A program made the position numbers and the translations under genes. From a virus (lineage: Duplodnaviria; Caudoviricetes), in the IMG/VR virus record IMGVR_UViG_3300032046_005782, positions 1-52,532 of that record: a DNA stretch of 52,532 bases; one strand, written 5' to 3'. The notes under the pieces are model-generated. The model was given only the letters and a program-made list of their open reading frames with translations, did not search any database and was not told the DNA's origin. Of the stretch, positions 7,165 through 32,711 are shown in pieces. How positions within the stretch are numbered: the first letter of the stretch is position 1; each line of letters starts with the position of its first letter.

Positions 7165-7390
7165 CTGTTTCCTCCTGCTCTATATACGAACTGGGGTCAA
7201 GAATGATCACCTGGACTGAGGGCCAGGTGGCCAGATGCATGCGCTCAATCAGGCAAAGGGCCAAGGCTTCCTCGATCTTGGCGGTGAGGTGCATCGCGGG
7301 TTCTGCATCGCGTGATTCCTCACAGCGGATAGTTCTGGCCAGGGCCTGGGCCTGGTCGGTTGGTAGATCAACCTTGATGTGTATGATCAT
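7136..7390 (-). CDS. Hypothetical protein, paralogue of 6943-7164
   Basis: CAGGAGGA RBS, downstream of an ECF-like promoter. Confidence 0.8.
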   Translation of the reverse strand: MIIHIKVDLPTDQAQALARTIRCEESRDAEPAMHLTAKIEEALALCLIERMHLATWPSVQVIILDPSSYIEQEETDDHTDESPR

Positions 7391-7426: not shown

Positions 7427-7439
7427 AAAACTTCAGTTG
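7407..7439 (-). promoter_or_regulatory. ECF-sigma-like promoter, copy 1
   Basis: CAACTGAAG-N16-CGTATA, upstream of an RBS. Confidence 0.75.
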
Positions 7440-9905: not shown

Positions 9906-12119
9906 ATGGCCACTCCCTTTAAAGAGTTAGGGTCGACCGGACTCCCCCAATGGGGGGGAATCGTCATGGTCGAGACAGATCCATTACTGCGGGGGCAGTT
10001 GGGGTATCGCACTTTCGACGAGATGCGGTTGCAAGATCCGACAGGAATCGCGATGTATTACCTGCTTTCGCTCCCCATCCGGCGGGTCACGTGGTCGTGT
10101 TTGCCTGGCGGGCAGTCGGAGGCGGATCAGAAGGCTTCCGATTTCGCCTGGTCGTGCTTTGGCGACACTTCCCACTCCTTCAATGATCTAATCGCCGATG
10201 CCTGCCTTATGTTCGTTTATGGGTGGTCCTACTTCCACATGAGCGTGAAACGGCGGGCGGGGGACAAGGGGAAAGCAAAAAGCCAGTTCGACGATGGCCT
10301 GGTCGGCTTTCGGAAAATTGCTTTTCGCTCCCCCTTGACTCTCGACCATTGGGAGTTCGACGAGGAGACGGGGGACATCCAGGGCCTGTGGCAGTACCAG
10401 ATCAAAACGGGCGAGGTCGTGTACATCCCCCTGGGCGAATCGCTCCTGTTCCGGACATCACGCGAGGGAGACAATCCGGAGGGTCTATCGATCTTCCGGC
10501 CTGCGGTCAATCCATACAAGTACAAGAAACGCTTGGCCCAGGTTGAGGGTATTGGCCTGTATCGCCGGTGGGCGGGCTTCCCCTTGATCAAACTGCCCGA
10601 TGGTGCCACTTCGCGGACGGACGTGGCCGAGGGGGAGGTGTCTGACGAACAGCGGGCGGAGGAGTTGGTCAAGGCGATCTACGAGGACAGGATGATGGGG
10701 GCCTTCATCCCCACATCGTGGGATTTGAAGTTTGGTGGTCCAGAGGGTACAATCGACCGGACGATGGGCGACACCATCGTCCGCAAAGACGCGGAAATGG
10801 CGCGATCGATCCTGGCCCAGTGGTTGCTCCTGGGGATGCGCGAGGTCGGGTCACGCTCCCTGGCCGAGACGCTGCAGGGGTCGTTCACCCTGGCGGTGGA
10901 GGCATTCCTGCAGATCATAGAGGACGAGTTGAATCGCTATGCTATCCCCTATCTTTTCCGGTTCAACCCGTGGCCTGGGATGACGTCGTACCCTACCCTG
11001 ACGCATACGTCACCCAGGTCGTTGGACTTGGGCAAAGTTGGCCAGTACATTACTGCCCTGTGCGGGGCTGGTTTCACGATGGATGCTCCAACCGAGAATT
11101 TCCTTCGCTCGCTTGTGCCGGGGATGCCGGAGGCTCCGGTGGAGATGGTTTCTGAACTGCCCGTGGGCGGGGATGGCGAGACAGGGCAAACGGAAGAGAA
11201 ACCCAAACCTGGGAGCGGAGAGGGTACGGGCGAGACGGAGGGAGAAGGCTACTCACGGGTGCGGGTGCCGGCTGGTCGGCGGGAGCAATTTCTCGCCGGT
11301 GGCGCTGAGCGGTTTGGGCCTGTTCCTCCTGAAAGTCGGCCTGCCCAATACGTGACGTTCGTGGATGCCAATGCCGAGGCGCAAAGGCGGAATCTCTCCG
11401 GGTGGGCTGAAGACCTGGCCACAGAAGTGGCGGGCCTGGGGCCCGGGGCGGACGAGGTCACCCTGCGTTCCAAGCTGGACGATCTTCTGCTGGTCGGCCT
11501 GCTGCTGTTCCGGGAAAAGTCGGCGCTAGACATAGCGGCTGCATTCTGGTTGGGGTTCGGTCCGCCGACCGGCGATGCACGGGTGCAGGCGCAGTTGCGC
11601 GCGGAGATCTCGAGGGCGGATGCCTGGATTGGGTACGGGTCTGATGGGCGACTCTCAACCATCAATCCGGCTGGTAAGTCAACCCTATTCGGGGACATCC
11701 GTGGTGAACTGGAGGGCCAGATCGCGGCCATCTTGCTCCTGCTCAAAGAGGGGCGGGAGGACGATGCCTGGATTCTGGTGCACCAGGCGGTTGGGGCTGC
11801 GACTCAGGGGTTTTCTCGCGCGGAGTTGTACGCAGGGGAGGTCTGGCACTCGATTTGGTCGGGGGCTGTCGAACGTGCTATGATTGAGGATCAGCAGCAG
11901 GGATTCCCATCCCCTGTGCGGTGGGTCTTGGACGTCATTGCCAAACACTGCCGGACTTGCCCCAAGTTTGGAGCAGATCCTCCTGGGCGCGAATACCCAT
12001 CCGTCCAGGTGATGCTGGCGCAGACAGGTGGCATCAAACCCGGCCAGGGCACAGAGTGCGATGGTCGGTGCCGGTGTCATCTGGAGCGGTTGTCAAACGG
12101 GGTTTGGGCATGGCTGTAG
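9906..12119 (+). CDS. Portal protein (DUF935/Mu gp29-like) fused to a C-terminal MuF-like head morphogenesis domain
   Basis: Follows terL; NPEGLSIFRP and EMARSILAQWL motifs, an acidic linker, then HCRTC...PGQGTECDGRCRCHLE. Confidence 0.85.
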   Translation: MATPFKELGSTGLPQWGGIVMVETDPLLRGQLGYRTFDEMRLQDPTGIAMYYLLSLPIRRVTWSCLPGGQSEADQKASDFAWSCFGDTSHSFNDLIADACLMFVYGWSYFHMSVKRRAGDKGKAKSQFDDGLVGFRKIAFRSPLTLDHWEFDEETGDIQGLWQYQIKTGEVVYIPLGESLLFRTSREGDNPEGLSIFRPAVNPYKYKKRLAQVEGIGLYRRWAGFPLIKLPDGATSRTDVAEGEVSDEQRAEELVKAIYEDRMMGAFIPTSWDLKFGGPEGTIDRTMGDTIVRKDAEMARSILAQWLLLGMREVGSRSLAETLQGSFTLAVEAFLQIIEDELNRYAIPYLFRFNPWPGMTSYPTLTHTSPRSLDLGKVGQYITALCGAGFTMDAPTENFLRSLVPGMPEAPVEMVSELPVGGDGETGQTEEKPKPGSGEGTGETEGEGYSRVRVPAGRREQFLAGGAERFGPVPPESRPAQYVTFVDANAEAQRRNLSGWAEDLATEVAGLGPGADEVTLRSKLDDLLLVGLLLFREKSALDIAAAFWLGFGPPTGDARVQAQLRAEISRADAWIGYGSDGRLSTINPAGKSTLFGDIRGELEGQIAAILLLLKEGREDDAWILVHQAVGAATQGFSRAELYAGEVWHSIWSGAVERAMIEDQQQGFPSPVRWVLDVIAKHCRTCPKFGADPPGREYPSVQVMLAQTGGIKPGQGTECDGRCRCHLERLSNGVWAWL

Positions 12120-12331
12120 TGGGTGGGATACGGCTGGAGAGGCGCCATTCTCGCCTGCAGGACATCACGAATCGCCTGGCCTGCCTGGGGCCCGGGCTCC
12201 ACATCGTGCTGGTGGTCAAGAATGCTACCGGTGGCCAGGGTATCGTCGGCTGGTCGGTCACATCGACGACTCTCGAACCTAACGGTCAGGTACTGGTGCC
12301 GGCTGAAGAATCTTCCAGTATACCACGGTGA
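12110..12331 (+). CDS. Hypothetical protein
   Basis: ATG overlaps the portal end (MAVVGGIRLERRH...). Confidence 0.55.
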   Translation: MAVVGGIRLERRHSRLQDITNRLACLGPGLHIVLVVKNATGGQGIVGWSVTSTTLEPNGQVLVPAEESSSIPR

Positions 12332-12367
12332 CTCCCCCACATCCGTGGGGGTATCGCAGGGACGCAA

Positions 12368-12400
12368 ACAAACCCCCACCCGAGATGGGTGGGGGTTTGT
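12368..12400. terminator. Bidirectional terminator-like hairpin between convergent units
   Basis: Perfect 14-bp stem acaaacccccaccc-gagat-gggtgggggtttgt. Confidence 0.75.
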
Positions 12401-12901
12401 CTACGGTAGATCAAAGTCAAAGAGGGGGAGTTGCACTCCCTGGGAGACGATTTCTTGCTCCCATACCCAGTAGGCACATGCGTAGCAGGTTTCTCTGTGC
12501 GTGACGACATGATACTGCGGTTCCCTGGCGTCCAGGTTCACGCTGGTAATCTCGCCACTGGCCTGGTGGCGAGATGGTGTGCGGAAGGTGACGAGCATGC
12601 CAACCGCATACCTGGGGGAGGGGCATTCCTCCTGGGAGACGATTTCTTGTTCCCGTACCCAGTAGCCAGTATCACAGTTGGAATGCATGGGGTCGTGTTC
12701 AATCACGACGCAGTACTGGGGTTCATGCCCTTCGAGGCTCACAGCACTGATTTCTTTCGTGAATTGGCGTCCATCGTGGAGCCAGAAGGTCACCAGGTTG
12801 CCTAAGGCATACCTGGGGGATGGGCATCCCCCAGGTACGCTGATGCCGGCCTGCCGGTCAGAACGGGCAGGTTCGGTCGTGGCGACTGCGCCAGTAGGCA
12901 T
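12401..12901 (-). CDS. Hypothetical protein with two tandem SH3-like repeats (start uncertain)
   Basis: CPSPRYA.G.LVTF...EI..V.L...EPQY.VV...YWV.EQEIVSQ occurs twice. Confidence 0.7.
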   Translation of the reverse strand: MPTGAVATTEPARSDRQAGISVPGGCPSPRYALGNLVTFWLHDGRQFTKEISAVSLEGHEPQYCVVIEHDPMHSNCDTGYWVREQEIVSQEECPSPRYAVGMLVTFRTPSRHQASGEITSVNLDAREPQYHVVTHRETCYACAYWVWEQEIVSQGVQLPLFDFDLP

Positions 12902-13340
12902 ACCCTTTGGCGGCGTCTCGGAGTTGGTGGTATGTGGTTTCAGCATCTTCTTCCTCATCCCCCATGCCATACTTGTCCCACATGGCCAGGGCCTGGCGGG
13001 CGGCTGCCAGCAGGTCGGTGTCCAAAGTGTGTTTGGCGTCTTCGAGAACTGTGATGGCCGTGGCCAGGCAGACGCGGTCATGGTCGGTGATATCTGGTAG
13101 ACAGGCGATGCGCTTCGTCGTCCAATCGAGGGCCTGGATCACATCGAAGGGCGGCTGTTGCCTGGCTTCGTCCAGGCAGGGTCGGACTTTGGTGTTGAGG
13201 GCCTTCAGCAGTTCGTCGAGCGCATGGCGCTGGTCATCCACCTTCGGCTTTGGTGTTCCTGCGTTGGTCTTCCTACTCCCCAGGGTGGCCACTGCCAGAG
13301 CAAAGTGGGTGCTTGCACTCTCAATCTGCGTTTCCGCGTG
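12858..13340 (-). CDS. Hypothetical protein, possibly the frameshifted 3' half of 13321-13665
   Basis: Protein-like helical ORF with no clear RBS or start; upper boundary approximate. Confidence 0.55.
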   Translation of the reverse strand, partial: HAETQIESASTHFALAVATLGSRKTNAGTPKPKVDDQRHALDELLKALNTKVRPCLDEARQQPPFDVIQALDWTTKRIACLPDITDHDRVCLATAITVLEDAKHTLDTDLLAAARQALAMWDKYGMGDEEEDAETTYHQLRDAAKGYAYWRSRHDRTCPF

Positions 13341-13665
13341 GCTCCAGGACGATGGCCTGCATGGGACTGGCCAGAGCGAGGAGCGCCTTCCAGAACTGGT
13401 CCAGACCGCGCATGTTGCCAACGTTCAGTACCCAATCGCCCAGGTCGGTTTCCGAACCATCCATGGGGCATCCTGAGCGCGCGATGCTAATCGCCGTCAG
13501 GTGGACATAGACGTCGTTACCATCCACAGCCAGAATCTCGGCGCTGTACTGGCGGGCATGAGGATGGACGTCGTCAGGATTGGCGTTCACCCTGCGATGG
13601 AGGCTGACGGCCAACTTCTCTTGAAAGTATGGCGTCAGCAAACCTAAGACTTGGATTGGTTCCAT
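13321..13665 (-). CDS. Hypothetical array protein
   Basis: CCAGGAGGA RBS after element 1. Confidence 0.8.
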   Translation of the reverse strand: MEPIQVLGLLTPYFQEKLAVSLHRRVNANPDDVHPHARQYSAEILAVDGNDVYVHLTAISIARSGCPMDGSETDLGDWVLNVGNMRGLDQFWKALLALASPMQAIVLEPRGNAD

Positions 13666-13686
13666 AACGGTTCCTCCTGGTCATGA

Positions 13687-13776
13687 TGTCAGGGTTGTGT
13701 TCCCCTGCGGTAGCGCCAGGGCCTGGCGGGCCTGGGGCTACCGCAGGGGAGATGGGTGTCCATCCCATCCCCCCTG
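13687..13776 (-). repeat. Structured intergenic element, copy 1
   Basis: tgtcaggg box, then tcccctgcggtagcgccagg...cctggggctaccgcagggga, then a gatggg/cccatc hairpin (plus-strand reading). Confidence 0.92.
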
Positions 13777-13784
13777 CGCCATGG

Positions 13785-14219
13785 TTACAGGTTCCTGCGG
13801 TGAATCTCGGCCAGCAGTTCTTCGTCGGTAAAGGCGGCGAGGGGGTTGTGTTTGTTCCCCTGCACCATCTCCACCAGGTCGGCTACCTGGGCACGGATGC
13901 GTAATGCCCACCCACGTTCCTTGTCTGTGGTGGCGATGTCTGTGATGGCCAGGTCACCTTCCTGGTTCAGGAGGAGGACGTTGTAGGTGGTAGTATGGTA
14001 CTTCTGGCTACCGCGCGTAGTTGCGGTGACCAGAACCATGGGCGTGGAGACGTCCACTGTGCCGGTGGCGAGGAAGGGGCCAACAAAGGCATACCCTCCT
14101 GTTGCCAGTTCGTCGATACTGGTCACCTGCTTTACCCAAGACTTGAATCGTCCATCGTGGGGCGATCCTTCGTGGCCTGTGACCAGGGCCATCACTTCGG
14201 CGTACAAATCGCGAATCAC
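13785..14219 (-). CDS. Hypothetical array protein
   Basis: GTG start with CAGGAGGA RBS. Confidence 0.85.
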   Translation of the reverse strand: MIRDLYAEVMALVTGHEGSPHDGRFKSWVKQVTSIDELATGGYAFVGPFLATGTVDVSTPMVLVTATTRGSQKYHTTTYNVLLLNQEGDLAITDIATTDKERGWALRIRAQVADLVEMVQGNKHNPLAAFTDEELLAEIHRRNL

Positions 14220-14241
14220 AAGCTAATCCTCCTGTCTAATG

Positions 14242-14335
14242 TGTCAGGGTGTGTTCCCCTGCGGTAGCGCCAGGGTCTGGCGGAGGGCCTGGCGTTACCG
14301 CGGGGGGGGATGGGTATCCATCCCATCCCCCCCTG
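14242..14335 (-). repeat. Structured intergenic element, copy 2
   Basis: Same box, long stem and short hairpin. Confidence 0.92.
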
Positions 14336-14342
14336 GCCTGGG

Positions 14343-14597
14343 TCATCCCCACCTTGCGGCTTCCTGGTCGATGGCGTTCTGCAATCTCTCGAAGGCTGCT
14401 GCTGCTGCTTGCTTTGCGGCTTCGTAGGTTGCATAGTCGTCCATCAAGACCTGGTATGCTGCATCGACCGCATCCTTCGTGGCGGCGAGATCCGTGAAGA
14501 CGGGGTTACTACTCGATGCGATCCATCGCTTGTGGTGGGTGTCCAGTGTGGCGCAGGCGGCTTCGTATCGCGCTTTCAGCAGGGCTAATTCGTTCAT
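14343..14597 (-). CDS. Hypothetical coiled-coil array protein
   Basis: MNELALLKARY... after a CCAGGAGGA RBS. Confidence 0.8.
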   Translation of the reverse strand: MNELALLKARYEAACATLDTHHKRWIASSSNPVFTDLAATKDAVDAAYQVLMDDYATYEAAKQAAAAAFERLQNAIDQEAARWG

Positions 14598-14617
14598 CCC
14601 ATTCCTCCTGGCCTGGG

Positions 14618-15343
14618 TCAGTCGTTGGCCTTCTGACGCTCGACGTCGGTGAGGGTCTTGGCGATGAGGCGGGTGGCTGCTCCATCGCCCACCCACTCTT
14701 TCCACTGTCCATGAGGTGTTTCCCCTGGCAGGCGGTGGACTTCGACACGGTCGGTGTCCCAGTCTGTGATTTTGATGTAGAAGGAAGCGAGGCCCAGGGC
14801 CTGCGCGATGACGCTCCAGGTCCGCAGGTCGTCGGGCTTCACCAACCCCTGCTCCACCAGGGCGATGACGTTACGATTCTTCACACAGTCGAGGGCGCGG
14901 CTTACGTCCAGGTAGGTCTGGACGTCTTCCGGCGTGTACACATAGATGTACTGGGGCGGCTTGCCCCAATCCCGGAGCCACTGGGGGGCAGGCGCTGCTT
15001 CTTCAGGTATGTGCACACCGATGTGCTGAGGCGGCTGCTGCTGGTCAGGGTCTACCCTGCCACTGCCTTGTGCTTCTGCCACAATGATGTCTTCGAGTTC
15101 CTGCTTGTAGCGGGCGAGGCTGTCGACGGTATCGATGGCTCCGATGGTGTAGAGATCCCACATCACCATCGCCTCTTCATCATAGAGGTAGCGGATACCC
15201 TGCGGGGTCACGATCTGCAGTTCGTTGGGCCTGCCGTTGGCCGACAGCGAGACGATGTGTATCGAGGCGATCTGGCTCAGGTCATATACCCAATTGCCTA
15301 TGATCACCCGTTCCGTGGGCCTTGCGTTGTGTACGGTTTGCAT
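14618..15343 (-). CDS. Hypothetical array protein
   Basis: MQTVHNARPT... after a CCAGGAGGA RBS. Confidence 0.85.
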   Translation of the reverse strand: MQTVHNARPTERVIIGNWVYDLSQIASIHIVSLSANGRPNELQIVTPQGIRYLYDEEAMVMWDLYTIGAIDTVDSLARYKQELEDIIVAEAQGSGRVDPDQQQPPQHIGVHIPEEAAPAPQWLRDWGKPPQYIYVYTPEDVQTYLDVSRALDCVKNRNVIALVEQGLVKPDDLRTWSVIAQALGLASFYIKITDWDTDRVEVHRLPGETPHGQWKEWVGDGAATRLIAKTLTDVERQKAND

Positions 15344-15364
15344 GGCGGTTCCTCCTGGTTCTGA

Positions 15365-15456
15365 TGTCAGGGTTAACGTTCCCCTGCGGTAGCGCCAGGG
15401 CCTGGCGGGCCTGGCGTTACCGCAGGGGGAGAGTGTGCAGGGCCACTCTCCCCCTG
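15365..15456 (-). repeat. Structured intergenic element, copy 3
   Basis: Same long stem; the short hairpin is the variant ggggagagtg/cactctcccc. Confidence 0.92.
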
Positions 15457-15461
15457 GCGTG

Positions 15462-15956
15462 TCAGGTGCCACAGTTGCAGGGTGGCTTGGTCACCAGCAT
15501 AAAGTGGTTTGCTGACCACTGCGCGTACTGGGCGGCGTCATCCATCAAGTTGGCGGTCACGAGCGCTTCTGCATTCCGTTCGTCGAGCGCATCCACGGTG
15601 GCCAGCACATTCCCTTCGCCGTCGATGGCGTAGTACGTGAGCGGGTCGGTGGCGTTGATGGGCCATTGCGACTTGGGCATGCGCAGGAGATCGTCGGCGG
15701 AGCAATCTTCCTCGATCCAGGACGGGCGGTGTTCGCGGGGCAACCATCCCTTGATGAAGGCGATGTCACCAGGTTCCATTCCCCCCTGCTCCGCGAGGGC
15801 GCGATCGCTGCGAATGTCAGACCGCTTGGGGTCATCCGGGATGGCGTTCCCCTTCCGGATGCCACACAGCATGACCGGCTGGTCGTGTCGGTAGGATGGG
15901 TACTTGGCGGTGTAGACGTACCAAGCGCCAATGATGCGGGTGTCACCTTGTTCCAT
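15462..15956 (-). CDS. Hypothetical array protein
   Basis: MEQGDTRIIG... after a CCAGGAGGA RBS. Confidence 0.85.
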   Translation of the reverse strand: MEQGDTRIIGAWYVYTAKYPSYRHDQPVMLCGIRKGNAIPDDPKRSDIRSDRALAEQGGMEPGDIAFIKGWLPREHRPSWIEEDCSADDLLRMPKSQWPINATDPLTYYAIDGEGNVLATVDALDERNAEALVTANLMDDAAQYAQWSANHFMLVTKPPCNCGT

Positions 15957-15990
15957 TGCTTGTTCCTCCTGGCGTGATAGGTTCTGGTAC

Positions 15991-16022
15991 TTATACGAGT
16001 TAGCGTGGGAAAACTTCAGTTG
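15991..16022 (-). promoter_or_regulatory. ECF-sigma-like promoter, copy 2
   Basis: CAACTGAAG-N16-CGTATAA; takes the place of the CCCTGACA box of element 4. Confidence 0.75.
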
Positions 16023-16094
16023 TCCCTGCTGTAGCGCCAGGGCCAGGGCGGGCCTGGCGTTACAGCAGGGAGGATGGGTGGCCATCCTTCCCTG
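16023..16094 (-). repeat. Structured intergenic element, copy 4
   Basis: tccctgctgtagcgccagg...cctggcgttacagcaggga with a compensatory G-C to T-A change. Confidence 0.9.
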
Positions 16095-16110
16095 GCGAGC
16101 GGGTCGCAGT

Positions 16111-16371
16111 CTAGTCATTGCCAAACGGGGGACACGGTCGGTCAACGTCATTGATGGGTGTGTGTCCAGCCAGGGCGAGATCCAGGTCACCTGGCTCAGA
16201 CTCTGCCAGTTCGGTGGTGAGCACGAGGACGTGGCGTACTGCAAAGATGGGGTTGCCTTGCGCGTCCAAAAACTCGCATTCCACGGTGTTGGGCGTTTCG
16301 ATCTTTGGCGATCTGATCATGTTCCTGAAGACTGCTACGATTGCGACTGGTTGTCCACCATACGTGATCAT
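16111..16371 (-). CDS. Hypothetical array protein
   Basis: CAGGAGGA RBS. Confidence 0.8.
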   Translation of the reverse strand: MITYGGQPVAIVAVFRNMIRSPKIETPNTVECEFLDAQGNPIFAVRHVLVLTTELAESEPGDLDLALAGHTPINDVDRPCPPFGND

Positions 16372-16393
16372 GCTGTAATCCTCCTGTCTGATG

Positions 16394-16484
16394 TGTCAGG
16401 GTTGTGTTCCCCTGCGGTAGCGCCAGGGCCAAGGCGGGCCTGGCGTTACCGCAGAGGGGATGGGTATCCATCCCATCCCCCCTG
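16394..16484 (-). repeat. Structured intergenic element, copy 5
   Basis: Near-identical to copy 2. Confidence 0.92.
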
Positions 16485-16494
16485 CCCCTGGGCA

Positions 16495-16929
16495 TCAGTA
16501 CTGCCTGAGCAAGATCAGAATCTTACCCCTGCGCAGCAGGTCCAGGCTCTCCATGTCGGGTCGCAGGCGACTCCAACGTTCCTCGAACTGTCGGCGGGCA
16601 TCGGCGAGGTTGAGGGCGCTAACTTCCCCCAGGTACGTTCCTGCCGGGGCATAGGCTGCGAACTGGTCCAGTTGGTACGCTTCGAATCCGGGCTCCAGTT
16701 CGAGCGTGGGGTCATAGGGCGCTGGCCAGGACTGGTCGGGATTGTCGGAGCGGTACACCAGGGCGCTGTTGAAGTGGCCACAGGGCAGGGCAATGGGGAC
16801 GGTGGTACGGGCGATCCGCTTGTCGTGGTAGTGGAACATAACTTCGACCGTGATCTTGTCGGCCTTCCCGCAGTTGTAGCATCTGACCACGGTTCCTGCG
16901 GGGCGGGTGAAGACTGTAATCGTGTTCAT
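16495..16929 (-). CDS. Hypothetical array protein with a possible Zn ribbon
   Basis: CYNC...CGH; CAGGAGGA RBS. Confidence 0.8.
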   Translation of the reverse strand: MNTITVFTRPAGTVVRCYNCGKADKITVEVMFHYHDKRIARTTVPIALPCGHFNSALVYRSDNPDQSWPAPYDPTLELEPGFEAYQLDQFAAYAPAGTYLGEVSALNLADARRQFEERWSRLRPDMESLDLLRRGKILILLRQY

Positions 16930-16985
16930 TGCATAATCCTCCTGCTATCGTCTTGACTTGTCAATCGAGTAAGGTGTTGGTGTTA

Positions 16986-17056
16986 CCCAACCAAAAACCC
17001 AGGCTGCCGGGGGCCTGGGTTTTTGGTTGGGCAGGAGGGCGTCCAACCCTCCTGCC
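16986..17056 (-). repeat. Structured intergenic element, copy 6 (sequence-divergent analogue)
   Basis: Perfect 19-bp stem cccaaccaaaaacccaggc/gcctgggtttttggttggg abutting a ggcaggaggg/ccctcctgcc hairpin. Confidence 0.8.
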
Positions 17057-17075
17057 GTTGCCTGTGGCCACTTCC

Positions 17076-17795
17076 TCATTCCTGTTCCGGGTCGTCGTAG
17101 GACTTGAGGACGGCGAGCGCCTGGTCCATGTCCATCTGCACGGGCGCTTTGATGTGCAGTCGCTCGATGGCGGGCTGGCATGCCCAGTCGGAGGGGCCTT
17201 CGCGGGTGATCCGGTGGACTGGCTTGCCCAGGGTCACGAAAACGTCCAGAACGCTGTCATACCCCTGTTGTGCCAATTCGACCACGAGCATGCGCTGCGC
17301 TTCTCCATCGTTGCGGGCTAAGACGCTCAGAGTGGGGTTGCTGGTTCCCATCTTGACGTGGTCGTCGGTGTAGGCGCTGTACTCGTGGTCCTTGACTTCC
17401 GTGAGCGGGACGTGCTGGCTCAGGCGGGCATCCCACACGGTTTCCGTAAAGCGGGCCTTCTTCTTCGCCAAGCGCAGCAGGACGTCGGCGACTTCCGGGC
17501 GTTTCCAGGATTCTTTGGAATTGAGGGCTGCGCGGGCGGCTTGCGTGGCCAGTTCCAGGCTTTCGAGGTCGCGCGCGGTCACTTCGATGTCGGCTGCGTA
17601 CCATTCTGACCAGTGCTTGTCCCAGGTGCCAGCCTTCTGCTCCTGGCCTTCCTCGATCCTGTTGGCCTGCCAGACGAGGGCAACCACGGGGTTGCCATAC
17701 TCGGTGGTGCGAATCTCCAGGCGCAGGTGCGTGTACTTGTCCCATGCGCCTGGGTCTTCCACCAATACCGTGTAGAGGTAAGTTTGCTTGTTCAC
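17076..17795 (-). CDS. Hypothetical array protein
   Basis: GTG start with CCAGGAGGA RBS; 239 aa. Confidence 0.85.
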   Translation of the reverse strand: MNKQTYLYTVLVEDPGAWDKYTHLRLEIRTTEYGNPVVALVWQANRIEEGQEQKAGTWDKHWSEWYAADIEVTARDLESLELATQAARAALNSKESWKRPEVADVLLRLAKKKARFTETVWDARLSQHVPLTEVKDHEYSAYTDDHVKMGTSNPTLSVLARNDGEAQRMLVVELAQQGYDSVLDVFVTLGKPVHRITREGPSDWACQPAIERLHIKAPVQMDMDQALAVLKSYDDPEQE

Positions 17796-17814
17796 GTCAA
17801 TCCTCCTGGGTTAG

Positions 17815-17945
17815 TGTCAGGATGGCGTTCCCCTGCTGTATCACCAGGGCCTGGGGTAGTCGCTTGCCAGGGCAACCCCTGGGGCAACCTTGCAGGTTCT
17901 GGTGATACAGCAGGGGGGGATGGTTGCTGGCGCTGTCCATCCCCC
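17815..17945 (-). repeat. Structured intergenic element, copy 7 (extra hairpin in the apical loop)
   Basis: cccctgctgtatcaccagggcctg...caggttctggtgatacagcagggg with several compensatory changes. Confidence 0.9.
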
Positions 17946-17958
17946 ACTGCCTGGCTGT

Positions 17959-18447
17959 CTATCGCTCCCATCGGGTCAAGGCACTCATCTGCTTCCATGA
18001 GAGCGGGCGGCTGTACTTGCGCGCGTCGGGCGGGGTTTCGATGTATGAAACTACCTGGTCGCGCAGGCTCCGGCGGAAGTCGGAGCGGAAGTTCTGAACC
18101 GCGAGCAGTTTGGTCAGGGCGACTCGCTCCGTGGGGTTGTCTACGTAGAGCGCCAGGTATACTTGCCAATCCTGGGGCATGTCCTTCGCTCCCTTGATGG
18201 CCCATACGGTTTCCCACTGGCTGGCGTGCTGCGCATATTCATCACCCGTCATCCAGTCGGGGATTTCTACGGGCCTGACTTCCCACTTGTTCACCTGTAC
18301 GGGTCGGAAATCGTCGGGCGAGAAGATGCAAGGCTTCTGTTCCGTCAGGTCTGCGGGGTCGGCGTCACCCTTCCACTCGCGTACAGGCGACTTCGGCGTG
18401 TACGTGAGTTCGCCATAGTGGCGGCAGAGAATCAGTACGGTCTTCAT
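17959..18447 (-). CDS. Hypothetical array protein
   Basis: MKTVLILCRHYG... after a CCAGGAGGA RBS. Confidence 0.85.
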   Translation of the reverse strand: MKTVLILCRHYGELTYTPKSPVREWKGDADPADLTEQKPCIFSPDDFRPVQVNKWEVRPVEIPDWMTGDEYAQHASQWETVWAIKGAKDMPQDWQVYLALYVDNPTERVALTKLLAVQNFRSDFRRSLRDQVVSYIETPPDARKYSRPLSWKQMSALTRWER

Positions 18448-18651
18448 TGTCGAATCCTCCTGGGTATAGTATGCGCCTAGCCAGGCTAATCGGCCACTCG
18501 GCCTGGCCAGGCTACCACACGAACCATTGGACTGCTTGCCCGTCACCCGTCCATCCAGAGCGTGGTGGCTCTCGCGCGTCAATTCGCGCTTCCCATGCCC
18601 AGGTGACTTATAGGGCAGTTTACCGTGGCCTATTCTGCCCCAGGGCTTCCC

Positions 18652-18717
18652 TACCTTCAGCCCAGGCCAGGCCCTGGCCTGGGCTGAAGGTAAGGGGAGC
18701 GTCACTCTCCCCTTACC
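18652..18717 (-). repeat. Structured intergenic element, copy 8 (sequence-divergent analogue)
   Basis: Perfect inverted repeat taccttcagcccaggccagg/cctggcctgggctgaaggta overlapping a ggtaaggggag/ctccccttacc hairpin. Confidence 0.8.
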
Positions 18718-18728
18718 CTTCTTCTTGT

Positions 18729-19148
18729 CTAGTGGTCCAGTTGCAGGGCCAGGCGGGCCTTGCGAACTGCGCGGGTCAAGCGTGGCAGGTATCCTACCTG
18801 CAGGCGGTTCTGCGCAGGAAAGTCGTACTGTAGCGCGCTGATCACTTCCATTCCGAAATCTACGGCTGCGCTTTCCAGGGCGGCGAGCGCCTTGACCGCT
18901 TCGCTCTTGTCGCTCAGGGTGCCGCTGTCTGCGCCATCGGTTTCGTCAAGGAGGGGTTCGTTGCGCAGGGCCAGGCGGGCCTTGCGGACTGCCGTGATCA
19001 GGTTGGGCAGGTATCCTACCTGCAGGCGGGCCTGTGTGGTCGGGTCAAACTTCGTAACTTCGATCACTTCCAGACCAAAGTCTACAGTGGTACTCTCCAA
19101 CTCCTTGAGCGCGTTGACCACTTCACTGTGGCTATAGACTGCGTCCAT
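18729..19148 (-). CDS. Hypothetical array protein with an internal tandem duplication
   Basis: SE.V.AL..LES..VDFG.EVI...RLQVGYLP.L..AVRKARLAL occurs twice; CCAGGAGGA RBS. Confidence 0.85.
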   Translation of the reverse strand: MDAVYSHSEVVNALKELESTTVDFGLEVIEVTKFDPTTQARLQVGYLPNLITAVRKARLALRNEPLLDETDGADSGTLSDKSEAVKALAALESAAVDFGMEVISALQYDFPAQNRLQVGYLPRLTRAVRKARLALQLDH

Positions 19149-19168
19149 CGTTTGTTCCTCCTGGGTAG

Positions 19169-19246
19169 TGTCAGGGTTGCCCCTGCTGTAACCGCAATCC
19201 CTGAGTGGGGTTGCGGTTACAGCAGGGGAGGATTGTCGAATCCTCC
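19169..19246 (-). repeat. Structured intergenic element, copy 9
   Basis: tgtcaggg box, cccctgctgtaaccgcaatccc/ggggttgcggttacagcagggg, then ggaggatt/aatcctcc. Confidence 0.9.
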
Positions 19247-19258
19247 ACCTGGCTGCTG

Positions 19259-19669
19259 CTAGTACCCAAACGCGCGGGCCCAGCGCGTGACTCCGTACCA
19301 CTGCGCTTTCGGTACGGTGTTGATGATCTTGTCGGCGATGGCGTCGAGCTTCTTCGCCAGGGCCAGGCGTTCGTTGTAATCGCCATTCAATCCGAAATCC
19401 GCCGTCATGGGCATGCAATGGTGGCGGTCGTCGGGTGAAACGCTGAAGGCTACCATCCGCCAAATGTAGGCGGTCTCTCCGCCTTCGGTGACCACCTTGC
19501 GTCCACCAAACTCGTCACGCTCGTCCGTTTCGGTGTATACAATCGTCGGCTTGCTTGCGCGCAAGCATCCGGTGTGGTGGTTTACAATCCCCTGGGCGAG
19601 TGCGTGTTCGTCGGCGGTCAAGTTGGCCTGGCTGAGGTCAATCGTCGGGTACGTCCGCCTTGCGGTCAT
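19259..19669 (-). CDS. Hypothetical protein, first gene of the array
   Basis: CCAGGAGGA RBS. Confidence 0.85.
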   Translation of the reverse strand: MTARRTYPTIDLSQANLTADEHALAQGIVNHHTGCLRASKPTIVYTETDERDEFGGRKVVTEGGETAYIWRMVAFSVSPDDRHHCMPMTADFGLNGDYNERLALAKKLDAIADKIINTVPKAQWYGVTRWARAFGY

Positions 19670-20149
19670 TGTATCATTCCTCCTGGGGTTGAATTTATGC
19701 GGTAGTACCGCACCAGCAGTCTACCAGGTTTCTGGTCTGCTGCTGGTGGGGTATTACCCCTGCCGTCTTACCCTCTACTGCTTTTCTCCGCCAGGTCTTT
19801 TTCAGGTTTCCCTGTGTGGTCCAGGAGTTTCCCACCAACCTTGCGTTTCCCAGTCCAACCCTACCTTCCCAGGTTTTGGTTCGGCCAGTCTGCCGGATTC
19901 TCACCGTCGGGTCTTGGCTTTGAGCTTCGCTTTCAGGTTCCCCCTTGCTTAGTTACTCCCTGGGTTCGGGTTTTCCCGTTCTTCCCGTCCCTGCGCTTTG
20001 CGCCTGCCGTGGAGTTTGTCGCTAGAGCGTCCCTTTACTTGCTCTACTCGGCTAGTTTGTTCTGGTGCTACTCTGGCCAGGGCTTCCCCATCTGGTGGCC
20101 AGGCTCCCTGGGGGGCGGCTTCCCCCTTCGTGCTCCCTTACTGTCTATA

Positions 20150-20158
20150 ATCATACCA
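20150..20158 (-). promoter_or_regulatory. Extended -10 promoter candidate for the array
   Basis: TGGTATGAT on the minus strand in an AT-rich patch; no clear -35. Confidence 0.4.
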
Positions 20159-20558
20159 CGCCAAGGTGAACAACGGGTATAGGAACTCTTAAAAAACTAC
20201 TAGAAAACCATTCCGACTTTATCGCCGCTTGCAGAGCATTCCGATTGCGGAGGCCGGCAGGGACATGGTTTGACGTCACCCGAGATCAGGCGAGCGGCTG
20301 GACTCCCCCACCCGGCCCAGGGCGGGCCTGGGGCCTGCGCGGGTCAGGGTTATCAGGCTGATTTGTCAATGCGGCAGTATTCGCATAGTCAAAGGGTTTC
20401 CCTTTTCTGGTGGGTGGGGCGATTCCTGCCCGTTTTGCACTGAATTGGCGTAAAGTAAAAAGTAAGACGAAAGTAAGACACTTCCCCAGGTGTCTTACCT
20501 TGCGCGGGAGGTCCGTCTCGCGCGCGGTCCGCCTCGCCCAGTAGTACCACGATACCTG

Positions 20559-20587
20559 TTGACATTGGCGCGCTTTTGCTGTATAAT
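20559..20587 (+). promoter_or_regulatory. Consensus sigma70 promoter upstream of the lysis/structural operon
   Basis: TTGACA-17 bp-TATAAT, exact. Confidence 0.88.
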
Positions 20588-20833
20588 CTTCATCAGCAGT
20601 AGCGCAATCCTCCTGGGTCTGGTGAGCGTGCTGCGAGTGCTAAAGCCGGAGGAGGGTGCGGGCCCAGACTCCGGCGCGCAATCATCTGGTTCGTTTTCTT
20701 TTTGGGTTCGGGGCCCTGTGGGCAGGGGCGGATGGACTGGCGCTTCTCCTGGGCAGTTCGTCACCCTTGCCCACAGGGCAGTTACTGCGCTATATTTTAC
20801 AATGCAGGTCCACCTGTGCGGGCCTGCGAGGTG

Positions 20834-20910
20834 ATGGAAGGGCAGGAGCCAGGTACGCTGTCGACGTCGTCGTGAGGGCCACTGCAGGGTTCGGACTCCT
20901 GCCCTTCCAT
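20834..20910 (+). other. 15-bp terminal inverted repeat enclosing a tRNA T-arm-like motif (structured leader or degenerate tRNA)
   Basis: atggaagggcaggag...gcagggttcggactcctgcccttccat. Confidence 0.4.
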
Positions 20911-21026
20911 GATCAGAACATCCCCCACCCGGGCCCCAGGGCCTACGGATGGGGAATTGGCCCTGGAACACAGACACACGGGCTACCGGCGAACGGTTGC
21001 CCGTGTTTTGTTTGTGTGGAGGATGC

Positions 21027-21716
21027 GTGGCAGATCCAGAGTATGACCAGGTCCAGGTTCAGGCGCTGGTCGTGGAATGTGACCAGGCAATTACTACGCT
21101 TCAGCAGACATCGGCCAATCTCCGCAGGCGATTGGACTGCCTGGTGGCCAGTCAAACCCCACTTCCGTGGACGCGCGATCTACGGGCAACCATGCCCAAA
21201 AACCCGGCTTGTCCAGGAATCCTCAAGGGCGGCTGGTGGCGCAGGCAGGTTGCGGCCATCAGGACGGTATGTTTCCACCACACTCTTTCCCAATCCCCTG
21301 TAGACTTCGCCAAGTGGTACATCACCAAGGAGGGCGGTCGGCCTTCGACGTGTTATACCCTTTGGATTACGGAGACCGGCGAGACCATCCTATGTGGTGA
21401 CCTGGAGGATGGGGTCTGGCACAATTTCCAGGGTCACGAGAATCTTGACTTGTCAGTTGGACTGGCGGGCAATCGGGCGGTCCTTGCTCCTTCGACGCTG
21501 CAGTTGAATGCGGCTGCACGGTTGGCGGCTTGGGCCATCAAATCTCCCCTGCTCCCCCTGATCACATCCCCCAAACAAATACTCGGTCACCAGGACTATC
21601 CCAAGTGTGGCGCTGGTGGCATCTATGCGACTGATTGCCCTGGGTGGCTGATGCCCCAAAGTGGAAAGTGGAAGGCTGCGCTATATGCGCGGTTGGATGC
21701 ACTCTTGTTAGTATAG
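21027..21716 (+). CDS. Endolysin, N-acetylmuramoyl-L-alanine amidase (Amidase_2)
   Basis: VCFHHT, ILGHQDY and TDCPG zinc-amidase motifs. GTG start after GGAGG. Confidence 0.85.
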   Translation: MADPEYDQVQVQALVVECDQAITTLQQTSANLRRRLDCLVASQTPLPWTRDLRATMPKNPACPGILKGGWWRRQVAAIRTVCFHHTLSQSPVDFAKWYITKEGGRPSTCYTLWITETGETILCGDLEDGVWHNFQGHENLDLSVGLAGNRAVLAPSTLQLNAAARLAAWAIKSPLLPLITSPKQILGHQDYPKCGAGGIYATDCPGWLMPQSGKWKAALYARLDALLLV

Positions 21717-31509: not shown

Positions 31510-31524
31510 TTGTAGGAGGTTCCG

Positions 31525-31743
31525 ATGGACACGGAAGGATCAGAACTGTTTACGGTGAGCATTACTCTGAGGGTACGTGACCAGGCTGCTGCCATCGATC
31601 TACTGGCCGACATCCTGCGGCAGATCAAATCGGGCGCGATCAAGACCGAGGGCTTTGACCTGGACTGCTACGCTTCTATGGAGGTTCAGGGGGACATCGC
31701 CCAGTGGGCCACTCCCCTGCCGGAGGTGGACGGTGAAAGTTAG
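31525..31743 (+). CDS. Hypothetical protein
   Basis: AGGAGGT RBS. Confidence 0.65.
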   Translation: MDTEGSELFTVSITLRVRDQAAAIDLLADILRQIKSGAIKTEGFDLDCYASMEVQGDIAQWATPLPEVDGES

Positions 31744-32424: not shown

Positions 32425-32435
32425 AGGGGGTCCGG

Positions 32436-32711
32436 ATGGACGACAAATCTACGCAGGGCCTGTTTACTGAGCGCGACTTGACACTGGTCGAGAATTGCCA
32501 GGTGTATGCTGCGGGCAATCCTGGCAGGCTACCTGGCCATGCCTTGATGCTGGTCGTGGCTAAAATCGCGCGGTTGGTGAATCACATGGCCACACTCCTG
32601 ACTCCAGAGGAGATCCAGGAGTGCATGGCGTTCTTCGTGGGTTCCCCCCCCACCCGATGGAGAGATGGAGTTCGGGCTGCGGGTTCCCGTGGGTCACAAA
32701 ACGTACCCTGA
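32436..32711 (+). CDS. Hypothetical protein
   Basis: In-operon ORF. Confidence 0.65.
   Translation: MDDKSTQGLFTERDLTLVENCQVYAAGNPGRLPGHALMLVVAKIARLVNHMATLLTPEEIQECMAFFVGSPPTRWRDGVRAAGSRGSQNVP

What the first reader, a model, noticed from the sequence alone, without database searches (positions are those of the whole stretch)
12401..19669. Array of about 13 unknown genes punctuated by a nine-copy structured intergenic element
Seen: co-oriented small ORFs on the minus strand, most with a CAGGAGGA RBS. Nine spacers (13687, 14242, 15365, 16023, 16394, 16986, 17815, 18652, 19169) share one layout in the transcribed direction: stop codon, short GC hairpin, an overlapping or abutting 19-24 bp hairpin (core CCCTGC[G/T]GTA...TAC[C/A]GCAGGG in seven), a CC(C)TGACA box in six, RBS, start. 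There is no U tract and no integrase, cas or transposase gene. Known parallels: RNase III sites between T7 and SPO1 early genes, T4 PeSL elements that drive modular gene shuffling, and integron attC arrays. None matches in sequence as far as I can tell. Inference: the element either cuts a polycistronic early RNA into individually stabilised mRNAs, or serves as a recombination joint for exchanging one-gene cassettes, or both.
Basis: partly seen in the sequence, partly recalled or inferred. Interest (0 to 1): 0.9.

Follow-up and report, generated by a model that had tools for sequence, protein, structure and literature searches.

The report
Structured repeat punctuating phage gene cassettes
A roughly 100-base folded DNA/RNA element sits after almost every gene in a block of unknown accessory genes of an uncultured phage, is conserved in shape across related phages, and marks the points where these genes are gained, lost and reordered.

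Summary
Thirteen co-oriented minus-strand ORFan genes (19669-12401) lie between the portal and head-protease genes of a 52.5-kb plasmid-like phage. Nine spacers carry one structured element. A covariance model finds exactly these nine in the window and none elsewhere. Three related phages (G001, G002, G003) carry 8, 7 and 3 copies, all inside the equivalent array. The long hairpin (HP2) is proven by covariation: 11 of 18 pairs show double changes and 0 of 500 shuffles reach the observed score. New here: the 'CCCTGACA box' is the fourth of four co-varying segments (S1-S4; alleles TGC, TAC, AAC), which allow alternative folds. The elements are not intrinsic terminators, match no Rfam family, and no recombinase or RNase III gene is present. 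Gene order and content differ among the four phages. In near-identical environmental variants the joints lie inside the elements or at the RBS or stop codon. Copies are homogenised within each genome. Best reading (about 0.5): an intercistronic RNA module that sets the ends and translation context of each cistron, and whose repetition makes it the homologous-recombination joint for cassette shuffling. The shuffling part is supported. RNA processing is untested, and an excess of A.C over G.U mismatches argues somewhat against it. This is a new variant of the PeSL / ESAS kind.

The parts
12401..19669 (-). Array of 13 co-oriented ORFan genes A-M (A 19669-19259, B 19148-18729, C 18447-17959, D 17795-17076, E 16929-16495, F 16371-16111, G 15956-15462, H 15343-14618, I 14597-14343, J 14219-13785, K 13665-13321, L ~13292-12858, M ~12838-12401)
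   Evidence: no family above cut-off; the array lies between portal (9906-12119 +) and Mu-like protease (22286-23869 +)
19158..19261 (-). Element copy A-B: HP1 GGAGGATT/AATCCTCC; HP2 with the TGC allele; S3:S4 with a GCAA loop; then the RBS
   Evidence: CM 63.2 bits; z -7.1; 90% identical over HP2 to the copy after gene A in L006
18608..18727 (-). Diverged element copy at the start of the long B-C spacer (18728-18448): two abutting hairpins
   Evidence: CM 34 bits, not in the training set; z -6.4; travels with gene B in L006
17810..17955 (-). Element copy C-D, HP2 with a long branched apex
   Evidence: CM 69.3 bits; z -8.0; 85% identical to the L006 orthologue, with a compensated change
16964..17065 (-). 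Element copy D-E, AAC allele (CCCAACC..GGTTGGG..CCAAC). It holds an A5/T5 run, so it is the only terminator-like copy. It is followed by the palindrome TTGACAAGTCAA (16964-16953).
   Evidence: CM 78.2 bits; terminator-like site at 17011-16998; S4 matches its own allele
16389..16490 (-). Element copy E-F
   Evidence: CM 84.5 bits; the minimum-free-energy fold is three tandem hairpins
16003..16104 (-). Element copy F-G. It lacks S4. It is followed by the motif CAACTGAAGTTTT..TATAAG (16022-15992), a probable internal promoter.
   Evidence: CM 76.3 bits; motif; same layout after gene F in L006 and L036
15360..15461 (-). Element copy G-H
   Evidence: CM 83.7 bits; an X3 contig joins its HP2 apex (15406) to that of the I-J copy (14279)
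14237..14340 (-). Element copy I-J
   Evidence: CM 77.4 bits; joints at 14279 and 14328 in X3 contigs
13682..13782 (-). Element copy J-K: HP1 about 13775-13749; HP2 13748-13702; S4 box 13694-13687; RBS 13680-13673
   Evidence: CM 91 bits; joints at 13763, 13772 and 13684 in X3/X4 contigs
14332..14620 (-). Gene I flanked by a 14-base direct repeat, TGACCCAGGCCAGG (14620-14607 and 14345-14332). The H-I spacer is only 20 bases (26 with the stop and start codons) and has no element.
   Evidence: 2 exact copies, 0.07 expected
19670..20165 (-). Extended -10 promoter-like site (TGGTATGAT near 20160) and a purine-rich untranslated leader of about 480 nt in front of gene A, conserved in all four array-bearing phages
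   Evidence: no Rfam match. The promoter is read by eye and was not called by the scan.
12362..12396 (-). Canonical hairpin plus U-tract terminator that closes the array, convergent with the portal gene
   Evidence: 12389-12375; equivalent U-tract terminators end the arrays of L006, L005 and L036

Best explanation
The element is a modular, roughly 100-nt intercistronic unit of a polycistronic accessory-gene operon.

S1 and S3 have one sequence (GCAGGG type). S2 and S4 are its complement (CCCTGC type). Three folds therefore compete: (i) HP1 plus the full HP2; (ii) three tandem hairpins, namely S1:S2-extended HP1, the inner part of HP2, and S3:S4; (iii) a three-way junction closed by S1:S4.

Most likely mechanism (inferred). 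On the RNA, the unit insulates each cistron. A host endonuclease of RNase III type cuts in or beside HP2. HP1, extended by S1:S2, is left as a 3' stabiliser of the upstream message. S3:S4 is left as a 5' hairpin ahead of a uniform ribosome-binding site. Each gene is then expressed independently of its neighbours.

Shown by comparison. The same ~100 bases recur at nearly every gene boundary, so the copies recombine with each other. This homogenises them within a genome and produces gain, loss and reordering of gene-plus-element cassettes, without any dedicated recombinase.
For: Structure under selection. HP2 has 18 pairs in 23 copies from four phages, and 94.7% of cells are paired. Eleven of the 18 pairs show changes on both sides. 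No shuffle (0 of 500) reaches the observed score, and slid registers pair in only 33-51% of cells. RNAalifold finds the same helix on its own.

Four-segment covariation. In 20 of 24 copies a run of at least 5 nt complementary to S3 stands 3-31 nt downstream of it. It always carries the copy's own allele: TGC in 13, TAC in 4, AAC in 3. This includes all three alleles side by side in L036. S1 co-varies in the same way.

Competing folds. The three-hairpin fold equals the unconstrained minimum in 12 of 23 copies. The S1:S4-closed fold appears.

Placement. Full-length, gene-sense matches occur only inside the arrays: 9 in the window, 8 in G001 (100% complete), 7 in G002 and 3 in G003. There are none in 11 related or A-homologue-bearing loci that lack the array (L007, L012, L013, L026, L029-L033, L038, L039). 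Every copy lies between a stop codon and an RBS.

Not terminators. All four arrays end in a hairpin with a U tract, whereas 8 of the 9 elements have none.

S4 and promoters. The copies after gene F, which are followed by a promoter-like motif, are the ones that lack S4.

Conservation. Orthologous copies are 77-90% identical where the flanking proteins are 48-73% identical.

Recombination. Gene order is A B C D E F G H I J K L M in the window; B A C D x E F G H K L M in L006; A s y G in L005; and A a2 a3 C a5 D G a8-a11 F a13 K L in L036. Element A travels with gene A. Identity within the window is 82-96%, against 67-74% to the L006 orthologues. Contig joints fall at 13763/14328 (HP1 to HP1), 14279/15406 (HP2 apex to HP2 apex), 16493/16944 (gene E from RBS to stop) and 13322/13772 (gene K replaced).

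Precedent. RNase III processing of the T7 polycistronic early RNA, and 3' hairpins acting as stability determinants, are described in passages of PMC3867540.
Against: No RNA evidence of any kind is available, so ends, cleavage and even the timing of transcription are unknown.

In HP2 the non-Watson-Crick cells are 16 A.C and only 2 G.U on the mRNA strand. By my own count these represent about 10 independent events against 2. The stem would therefore pair better on the antisense (+) strand. Transition counts between variants look strand-symmetric (table 1), so mutation bias does not obviously explain the excess. Counted by eye, HP1 is balanced. The mismatches could play the role of the internal loops of T7 sites, but that is special pleading.

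The host is unknown: no relative was found in 185,579 species genomes with either the portal or protein A. RNase III availability therefore cannot be checked.

The joints come from de Bruijn contigs, which can mis-join at repeats. Only the 14961/13684 joint has a side (14961) in unique sequence. That two X3 contigs fit one consistent permutation is my reading of the table.

Only four independent lineages carry the element.
Confidence: 0.5

Rival explanations
1. The element works mainly on DNA. The hairpins fold on the single-stranded antisense (+) strand, for example on the lagging-strand template. There they promote template switching or strand exchange between copies. This would be a recombinase-free analogue of integron attC cassettes, and any RNA effect would be secondary.
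For: A.C outnumbers G.U by 16 to 2 on the sense strand, so on the + strand these cells become wobble G.T pairs that keep the stem continuous. The + strand is G-rich along the whole genome, as expected if it has the leading-strand sequence and its parental copy is the lagging-strand template (this step is inference). Copies evolve in concert. Joints fall inside HP1 and in the HP2 apex. The base of the stem is conserved while the apex varies in sequence and length, as in attC (attC features recalled, not tested).
Against: No tyrosine or serine recombinase and no HUH transposase was found in two complete and two partial genomes. A recombination patch does not need a fixed place between stop codon and RBS, a fixed orientation, or an S4 that matches S3. 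Copies after A, C and D have stayed orthologous and 77-90% identical over deep divergence, which points to a direct function. Selection for evolvability alone is weak.
Confidence: 0.2
2. The hairpins are transcription attenuators or pause sites. RNA polymerase passes them only after modification at the long conserved leader (processive antitermination, as with lambda nut or HK022 put). This would give timed or graded expression along the array.
For: Very stable hairpins follow nearly every gene. A ~480-nt leader is conserved in all four phages, with invariant blocks. PeSL stem-loops terminate as strongly as rrnB T1 in a reporter (passages of PMC2839356). The D-E copy is terminator-like.
Against: Eight of the nine copies lack a U tract, while the same phages use canonical U-tract terminators at the end of the array. 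The leader matches no Rfam family. This model does not explain S4 or S1.
Confidence: 0.13
3. The element is the binding site of a phage- or host-encoded protein, either a translational operator or a stoperator-like site. This would be the counterpart of the SAS/ESAS repeats of Cluster K mycobacteriophages, and it would co-regulate the cassettes.
For: The stem base (CCC-T/A-R-C), the apex (CCAGG..CCTGG) and the extended RBS (CCCAGGAGG) are conserved beyond what pairing alone requires. The layout of RBS-linked motif, upstream inverted repeat and variable spacer matches ESAS. So do the restriction to non-structural genes, the single orientation and the clade-specific consensus (passages of PMC3203893).
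Against: Three alleles of the conserved base coexist in one genome, L036. Arms change to unrelated sequences while keeping complementarity, which is the signature of a fold and not of a half-site. No candidate binding protein was identified: protein A has a confident model but no fold match, and A homologues occur without elements in L038 and L039.
Confidence: 0.1
4. The element is a selfish hairpin repeat, REP- or MITE-like, that has spread through the spacers and has no function for the phage.
For: There are many near-identical copies within a genome. The structure is palindromic.
Against: Copies are always in one orientation and in one position relative to the stop codon and RBS. They occur only in the array. 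They are retained at orthologous positions in phages whose portal proteins are 58-79% identical to the window's. No transposase is present. Compensatory changes maintain the fold.
Confidence: 0.04

Closest known systems
PeSL (promoter-early stem-loop) cassettes of T4-like phages (PMC2839356, passages; PMC4122927, abstract and outline)
   Same: A conserved composite of about 100 bp lies between stop codon and start codon, ending in the Shine-Dalgarno sequence. It contains a GC stem-loop. It is concentrated in a hyperplastic block of ORFans. Indels and replacements between relatives have their breakpoints in the element, including in the loop. No dedicated recombinase is involved.
   Different: A PeSL is defined by a strong sigma-70 early promoter with an AT-rich upstream region, and its stem-loop terminates transcription. 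Here 8 of 9 copies have no promoter-like site, there is no U tract, and there are two or three hairpins with four co-varying segments. There is no sequence similarity. The phage is an unrelated siphovirus-like phage-plasmid of about 52 kb.
SAS / ESAS repeats of Cluster K mycobacteriophages (PMC3203893, passages; PMC12699233, passages)
   Same: An RBS-linked conserved motif stands at the start of a subset of non-structural genes. About half of these have an upstream pair of imperfect inverted repeats with a variable spacer. All copies have one orientation. The consensus differs between sub-lineages. The function was still unknown in 2025.
   Different: The SAS is GGGATAGGAGCCC and the ESAS arms are 17 bp with a 4-13 bp spacer. 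Here the arms are 18-20 bp with loops of 3-39 nt, plus a second abutting hairpin and the S1-S4 system. The papers' passages that I read report no covariation analysis and no cassette shuffling at ESAS. There is no sequence similarity.
RNase III processing signals of the phage T7 early polycistronic RNA (passages of the review PMC3867540; SP82/SPO1 sites recalled only)
   Same: Hairpins of about two helical turns stand between cistrons of one long phage transcript. Mismatches or internal loops in the stem occur in both. In T7 the proposed outcome is a 3' hairpin that stabilises the upstream message.
   Different: T7 cleavage is shown by experiment; here nothing is. T7 has five sites in about 7 kb. 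Here there are nine sites in 7 kb, with extra hairpins and a co-varying downstream segment. The mismatch type here is A.C, not an internal loop.
Integron attC sites
   Same: An array of promoterless gene-plus-hairpin cassettes is read from one upstream promoter. The stem base is conserved while the apex varies in sequence and length. There is a hint that the strand antisense to the genes is the one that folds.
   Different: No integrase gene is present. No GTTRRRY/RYYYAAC core is visible in the copies (by reading; the attC features are recalled). The array sits in a phage head-gene module. Some single-gene indels are flanked by RBS-like repeats and not by elements.

Membership tests
T4-type PeSL | Strong sigma-70-like early promoter inside the element | tested here: not met
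   One search finds only 2 promoter-like sites in 11500-21500, both on the + strand at 20559-20796 and outside the elements. One copy (F-G) is followed by a different promoter-like motif.
T4-type PeSL | Stable stem-loop between stop codon and SD, with the SD at the 3' end of the element | tested here: met
T4-type PeSL | Flanks ORFans in a hyperplastic region; recombination between copies makes indels and replacements | tested here: met
   The joints come from contigs, so they are subject to assembly artefacts.
Integron attC / cassette array | Adjacent IntI tyrosine recombinase | tested here: not met
   PF00589 has 0 matches in 4 records, two of them at least 95% complete. The control search hit 14 of 14 genomes.
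Integron attC / cassette array | R''/R' core sites (RYYYAAC ... GTTRRRY) and extrahelical bases (features recalled) | tested here: not met
   The 23 copies listed end in GCAGGG / GTAGGG / GTTGGG. No shared GTTRRRY is present. HP2 has no bulged bases in the 18 modelled pairs.
T7-type RNase III processing signal | Intercistronic double-stranded stem of about two helical turns on a polycistronic RNA | tested here: met
   HP2 has 17-18 modelled pairs and runs up to 19-25 contiguous positions in single copies. It lies between the stop codon and the RBS of co-oriented genes.
T7-type RNase III processing signal | Cleavage by RNase III at the stem | not testable with these tools
   No RNA run holds the region. 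The host is unknown. No phage RNase III gene was found.
Cluster K SAS/ESAS | 13-bp SAS GGGATAGGAGCCC at the start codon, and 17-bp inverted repeats with a 4-13 bp spacer | tested here: not met
   The RBS motif here is CCAGGAGGA/T, and the arms and spacers differ.
Intrinsic (rho-independent) terminator | GC hairpin followed directly by a U tract | tested here: not met
   of the nine copies only D-E (17011-16998) is flagged on the gene strand. The array's own end (12389-12375) is a canonical terminator.
Host REP/BIME-type repeat | Many copies scattered in the host chromosome, often with a RAYT transposase | not tested
   The host is unknown. Within the phages all copies are confined to the array, and no Y1 transposase is present.
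Any Rfam family | Match at gathering score | tested here: not met
   One search gave 0 matches for the whole window. One search (12300-20700, E<=1) gave only sub-threshold hits to generic miRNA hairpin models (at most 30.7 bits against cut-offs of 52 or more).

The most novel reading that the evidence does not exclude
The array is a recombinase-free cassette system of a phage. The four co-varying segments let the element refold between a closed junction and tandem hairpins. On single-stranded DNA of the antisense strand, this refolding is what aligns two copies for strand exchange or template switching. One element would then both punctuate the mRNA and act as the designed joint of an integron-like gene-shuffling device sitting inside a virion-gene module.
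Probability: 0.15. Interest if true: 0.85.

Novelty: new variant of a known kind. Interest (0 to 1): 0.62.

Why it matters
Phage accessory-gene blocks are where anti-defence and host-takeover genes turn over fastest, yet how single genes move in and out while staying expressed is known in detail only for T4-like PeSLs. This element is a second, unrelated solution. It has no promoter. Its structure is proven by covariation. It has a four-segment design that allows refolding. Natural variants appear to have swapped cassettes at it. It also gives the still unexplained ESAS-type repeats of mycobacteriophages a comparison case with clear, testable pairings. If the RNA model holds, the unit is a compact natural intercistronic insulator. 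If the DNA model holds, it is a cassette-exchange site that needs no integrase.

Tried and rejected
Pattern hits elsewhere. The exact core pattern hit 9 stretches in IMG/VR. Two of them (L015, L020) lie in the relative G001. The other seven (L016-L019, L021-L023) have matching 10-base ends but no inner stem, so I treated them as chance. The TAC-allele pattern hit 8 stretches. Three belong to G002 or its near-twin. The other five (L041-L043, L045, L047) gave 0 covariance-model matches and were also treated as chance.

Searches for more relatives. The portal in metagenome contigs gave 10 loci but no new array. The portal and the protein A alignment in genome contigs gave no relative, so there is no host assignment. 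The protein C alignment gave only the known records.

RNA evidence. No RNA holder is listed, so nothing can be said about expression.

Sense versus antisense folding energy of whole spacers. The antisense strand folds better in 29 of 32 spacers (sense better only in W_2, L006_1 and L006_7). This is confounded by the G+T richness of that strand and was not used.

Forced conformer A energies for W_5, W_7 and W_10 look mis-registered. I used only the count of 12 of 23 copies where the conformer B energy equals the unconstrained minimum.

S4 as a -35 box. No -10 element lies at 16-19 bp (by reading), so this was rejected.

Protein A as the element's partner. The model is confident (pLDDT 93.9), but the best PDB match has E 1.3 and the Atlas search gave nothing usable. 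A homologues in L038 and L039 have no elements. No link was found.

Statistics on 'promoter-bearing copies lack S4'. The three cases all follow gene F and may be one event, so this carries no weight.

Supplementary files of the PeSL and SAS/ESAS papers were not seen; they hold the element alignments and could show closer resemblance than the passages I read. The literature searches were aimed at the known parallels. None could search for this element itself, so 'not described' rests on Rfam and on those four searches only.

Full report
WHAT THE WINDOW IS. The window is a whole IMG/VR virus record of 52,532 bases, estimated 95% complete. It encodes a gpA-type large terminase, a Mu-type portal (9906-12119 +) and a Mu-like head protease (22286-23869 +). 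It also has a long + strand block of large ORFs with no family match that I take to be structural genes. Further genes are ParA, an RHH protein, an FtsK-like protein, a ParB-methylase and a DnaD/DnaA_N-like protein. There is no integrase, resolvase or Y1 transposase and no tRNA. It therefore looks like a plasmid-type temperate phage. The host is unknown: neither the portal nor protein A found a relative in one genome per 185,579 species.

On the minus strand, thirteen co-oriented genes run from 19669 to 12401 (A-M). Eleven have a (C)CAGGAGGA RBS. None of A-M has a Pfam family above cut-off, and A-J have no informative PHROG hit. The core CCCTGCKGTA is found 27 times at up to 1 mismatch, against 6.5 expected. 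Fourteen of those hits are the two arms of seven spacers. A covariance model (R1) built from 23 copies of four phages finds full-length, gene-sense matches at exactly nine places in the window: 13682, 14237, 15360, 16003, 16389, 16964, 17810, 18608 and 19158. It finds nothing elsewhere. The only other hits are the reverse-strand images of these copies: the palindromic stems and, for the B-C copy, a weaker full-length match. The B-C copy (34 bits) was not in the training set.

WHERE THE ARRAY SITS. In the relatives L007, L013 and L012 (portal 51-54% identical), the protease follows the portal within about 200-400 bases. In four phages, a minus-strand array is inserted in that slot. These are the window; L006 = record G001 (portal 79%, 100% complete); L036 = G002 (portal 58%); and L005 = G003 (portal 59%). 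Each array starts with an extended -10-like promoter and a purine-rich leader of about 480-560 nt that has invariant blocks in all four phages. Each ends in a canonical hairpin-plus-U-tract terminator. R1 finds 8 copies in G001 (all within 31234-36178 of 64,705 bases), 7 in G002 (plus one weak) and 3 in G003. It finds none in the 11 other related or A-homologue-bearing loci searched that lack the array.

ANATOMY. From the stop codon, the order is HP1, an abutting long hairpin HP2, a short spacer, the 'box', the RBS and the start codon. HP2 is established by covariation. It has 18 pairs in 23 copies, with 94.7% of cells paired. Eleven pairs change on both sides. No shuffle (0 of 500) reaches the observed score, and slid registers reach only 33-51% pairing. 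RNAalifold predicts the same helix.

The new point is that the 'box' is not a free-standing motif. The 3' base of HP2 (S3: GCAGGG, GTAGGG or GTTGGG) is followed 3-31 nt later by its own complement (S4: CCCTGC or CCCTGACA, CCCTAC, or CCCAAC). This holds in 20 of 24 copies, and S4 always carries the allele of that copy. L036 carries all three alleles side by side, and each S4 matches its own S3. A segment upstream of HP1 (S1) repeats S3 and pairs with the 5' base of HP2 (S2); it co-varies too. Because S1 = S3 and S2 = S4, three folds compete: HP1 plus the full HP2; three tandem hairpins (the minimum-energy fold in 12 of 23 copies); and a three-way junction closed by S1:S4. In 17 of 23 copies the last two modelled pairs at the HP2 apex are CCAGG paired with CCTGG. 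However, CCWGG is about three times over-represented in the whole genome (552 found, 173 expected).

WHAT IT IS NOT. It is not an intrinsic terminator: 8 of 9 copies have no U tract, while the phages use canonical terminators at the array end. It is not a known RNA family. It is not a promoter cassette: there are no promoter-like sites in the copies. The exception is the copy after gene F, which is followed by the motif CAACTGAAGTTTT..TATAAG. That motif also stands at three other minus-strand sites. It is not an integron: no integrase is present. It is not a double-stranded operator: the arms change to unrelated sequences while keeping complementarity, and the arm spacing varies from 3 to 39 nt.

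RECOMBINATION. Gene order differs among the four phages. The window has A B C D E F G H I J K L M. L006 has B A C D x E F G H K L M. L005 has A, an HTH/sigma-r4-like gene, y and G. L036 has A a2 a3 C a5 D G a8-a11 F a13 K L. Between the window and L006, gene A keeps its own element (90% identical over HP2) and gene B keeps its 288-nt spacer, although the two genes have swapped places.

Two single-gene differences come without an element and are flanked by short RBS-like repeats. These are x in L006 and I in the window. For gene I the repeat is the 14-mer TGACCCAGGCCAGG, at 14620-14607 and 14345-14332.

Copies after A, C and D are orthologous between the two phages (90, 85 and 77% identity). 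Copies after E, F, G, I and J are 82-96% identical to each other within the window, but only 67-74% identical to their positional counterparts in L006. The L006 copies after F, G and H are 96-100% identical to each other. This is concerted evolution, meaning repeated exchange between copies.

Logan contigs of four other metagenome runs were then laid on the array. X2 holds the same sequence. X3, X4 and X5 hold relatives mostly 90-97% identical where laid, and these show joints at 13763/14328 (HP1 of J-K to HP1 of I-J) and at 14279/15406 (HP2 apex to HP2 apex, with 4 letters between). Further joints are 14961/13684 (K's RBS region joined to mid-H), 16493/16944 (gene E missing or replaced from its RBS to its stop codon) and 13322/13772 (K replaced by 194 other letters). 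Read together, the two X3 contigs give the order G - J - H' - I - K, a swap of the [J] and [H-I] cassettes.

There is a caveat. These are de Bruijn contigs, which can mis-join at repeats. Only the 14961/13684 joint has a side (14961) in unique sequence, and I saw tables, not sequences.

MECHANISM. The fold, the four-way covariation, the strict place and orientation, and the conservation of orthologous copies above that of the flanking proteins all point to a direct function in expression, not to mere homology patches. I favour an RNA module (about 0.5). In this model, a cut at HP2 by a host double-strand-specific nuclease frees S2 to extend HP1 as a 3' stabiliser. It also frees S3 to pair with S4 as a 5' hairpin ahead of a uniform RBS. 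Each cassette is then expressed alike wherever it lands. The T7 early RNA, with its five RNase III signals and 3' hairpins that act as stability determinants, is the precedent (passages of PMC3867540). The repetition then explains the shuffling, as proposed for PeSLs (passages of PMC2839356).

One result argues against a simple mRNA hairpin. HP2 has 16 A.C but only 2 G.U cells on the mRNA strand, so the stem pairs better on the antisense strand. This keeps a DNA-level reading alive (0.2): folding of the + strand, perhaps on the lagging-strand template. Attenuation with leader-dependent antitermination (0.13), a protein-binding site of ESAS type (0.1) and a selfish repeat (0.04) are weaker.

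COMPARISON AND NOVELTY. The closest known kinds are T4 PeSLs and the SAS/ESAS repeats of Cluster K mycobacteriophages. The function of SAS/ESAS was still called unverified in 2025 (passages of PMC12699233). The present element shares their logic but fails the defining features of each: it has no promoter, it has a different motif and arm geometry, and there is no sequence similarity. I file it as a new variant of that kind. It is so far seen in four lineages of uncultured phages (five records, one a near-twin of G002).

LIMITS.

Noticed in passing
window 19670-20165 (minus strand); L006 18880-19400; L036 7430-8010; L005 4820-5340: An untranslated, purine-rich leader of about 480-560 nt lies between an extended -10-like promoter and the first array gene. 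It is conserved in all four phages, with invariant blocks (for example CCCGACAGTG.AAATCTGGC). It has no Rfam match. It may be a regulatory RNA in its own right.
   Followed up: partly
window 7427-7439, 16010-16022, 49343-49355, 50484-50496 (minus strand); variant at 7183-7213: The motif CAACTGAAGTTTT, followed about 15 nt later by TATA, occurs four times exactly (0.29 expected), always on the minus strand and upstream of minus-strand genes. The same layout stands after gene F in L006 and L036. It is probably a phage-specific promoter class.
   Followed up: partly
window 260-332 and 20486-20556; 490-633: Iteron-like 18-base repeats (GCGGGAGGTCCGCCTCGC type) occur at two distant places, one of them in the divergent control region beside the array. 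Separately, there is a 48-base tandem repeat of three copies at 490-633.
   Followed up: no
window 12401-12838 (gene M) and 18729-19148 (gene B): Both genes consist of two tandem repeats of a domain of roughly 55-70 residues, whereas L006 has one repeat of each. X4 contigs show a different repeat number in M. M has no canonical start codon or RBS.
   Followed up: partly
window 12858-13421 (gene L): The L006 orthologue is 173 aa with a good RBS and ATG directly after K. In the window, the homologous N-terminus has no start codon and overlaps the end of K. It may be a truncation, a frameshift or a pseudogene.
   Followed up: no
whole window: CCWGG occurs 552 times against about 173 expected from base composition, spread evenly. 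The + strand is G-rich along the whole genome whatever the gene orientation.
   Followed up: partly
L009 12593-12661 and 13316-13384: A more distant relative (portal 52%) has a 3-kb insert in the same portal-protease slot. It carries two copies of a different pair of abutting hairpins (CCCCCTCCAGGGCG.. and GCCGGAGCGC..). The two-hairpin punctuation design may therefore recur with unrelated sequence.
   Followed up: no
window 19259-19669 (gene A): Protein A has 86 homologues in metagenomes and is present in all four arrays, first in three of them. Its AlphaFold model is confident (pLDDT 93.9) but has no PDB fold match (best E 1.3). Invariant motifs are RASKP and G.TAYIWRMVAF. Homologues also occur in phages without the element (L038, on a 168-kb contig; L039).
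   Followed up: partly
window 16953-16964; L006 about 19533-19544 and about 16325-16336: The palindrome TTGACAAGTCAA (TTGATAAGTCAA in the L006 D-x spacer) follows the D-E element. In L006 it also stands upstream of the array promoter. It may be an operator.
   Followed up: no
L036 12326-12517; L005 3594-4166: Cassettes unique to single phages include a 63-aa KOW-motif protein (24.4 bits, cut-off 22.3) and a 190-aa protein with an HTH / sigma-70 region-4-like C-terminus, preceded by its own TTGACA-17-TATAAT promoter.
   Followed up: no
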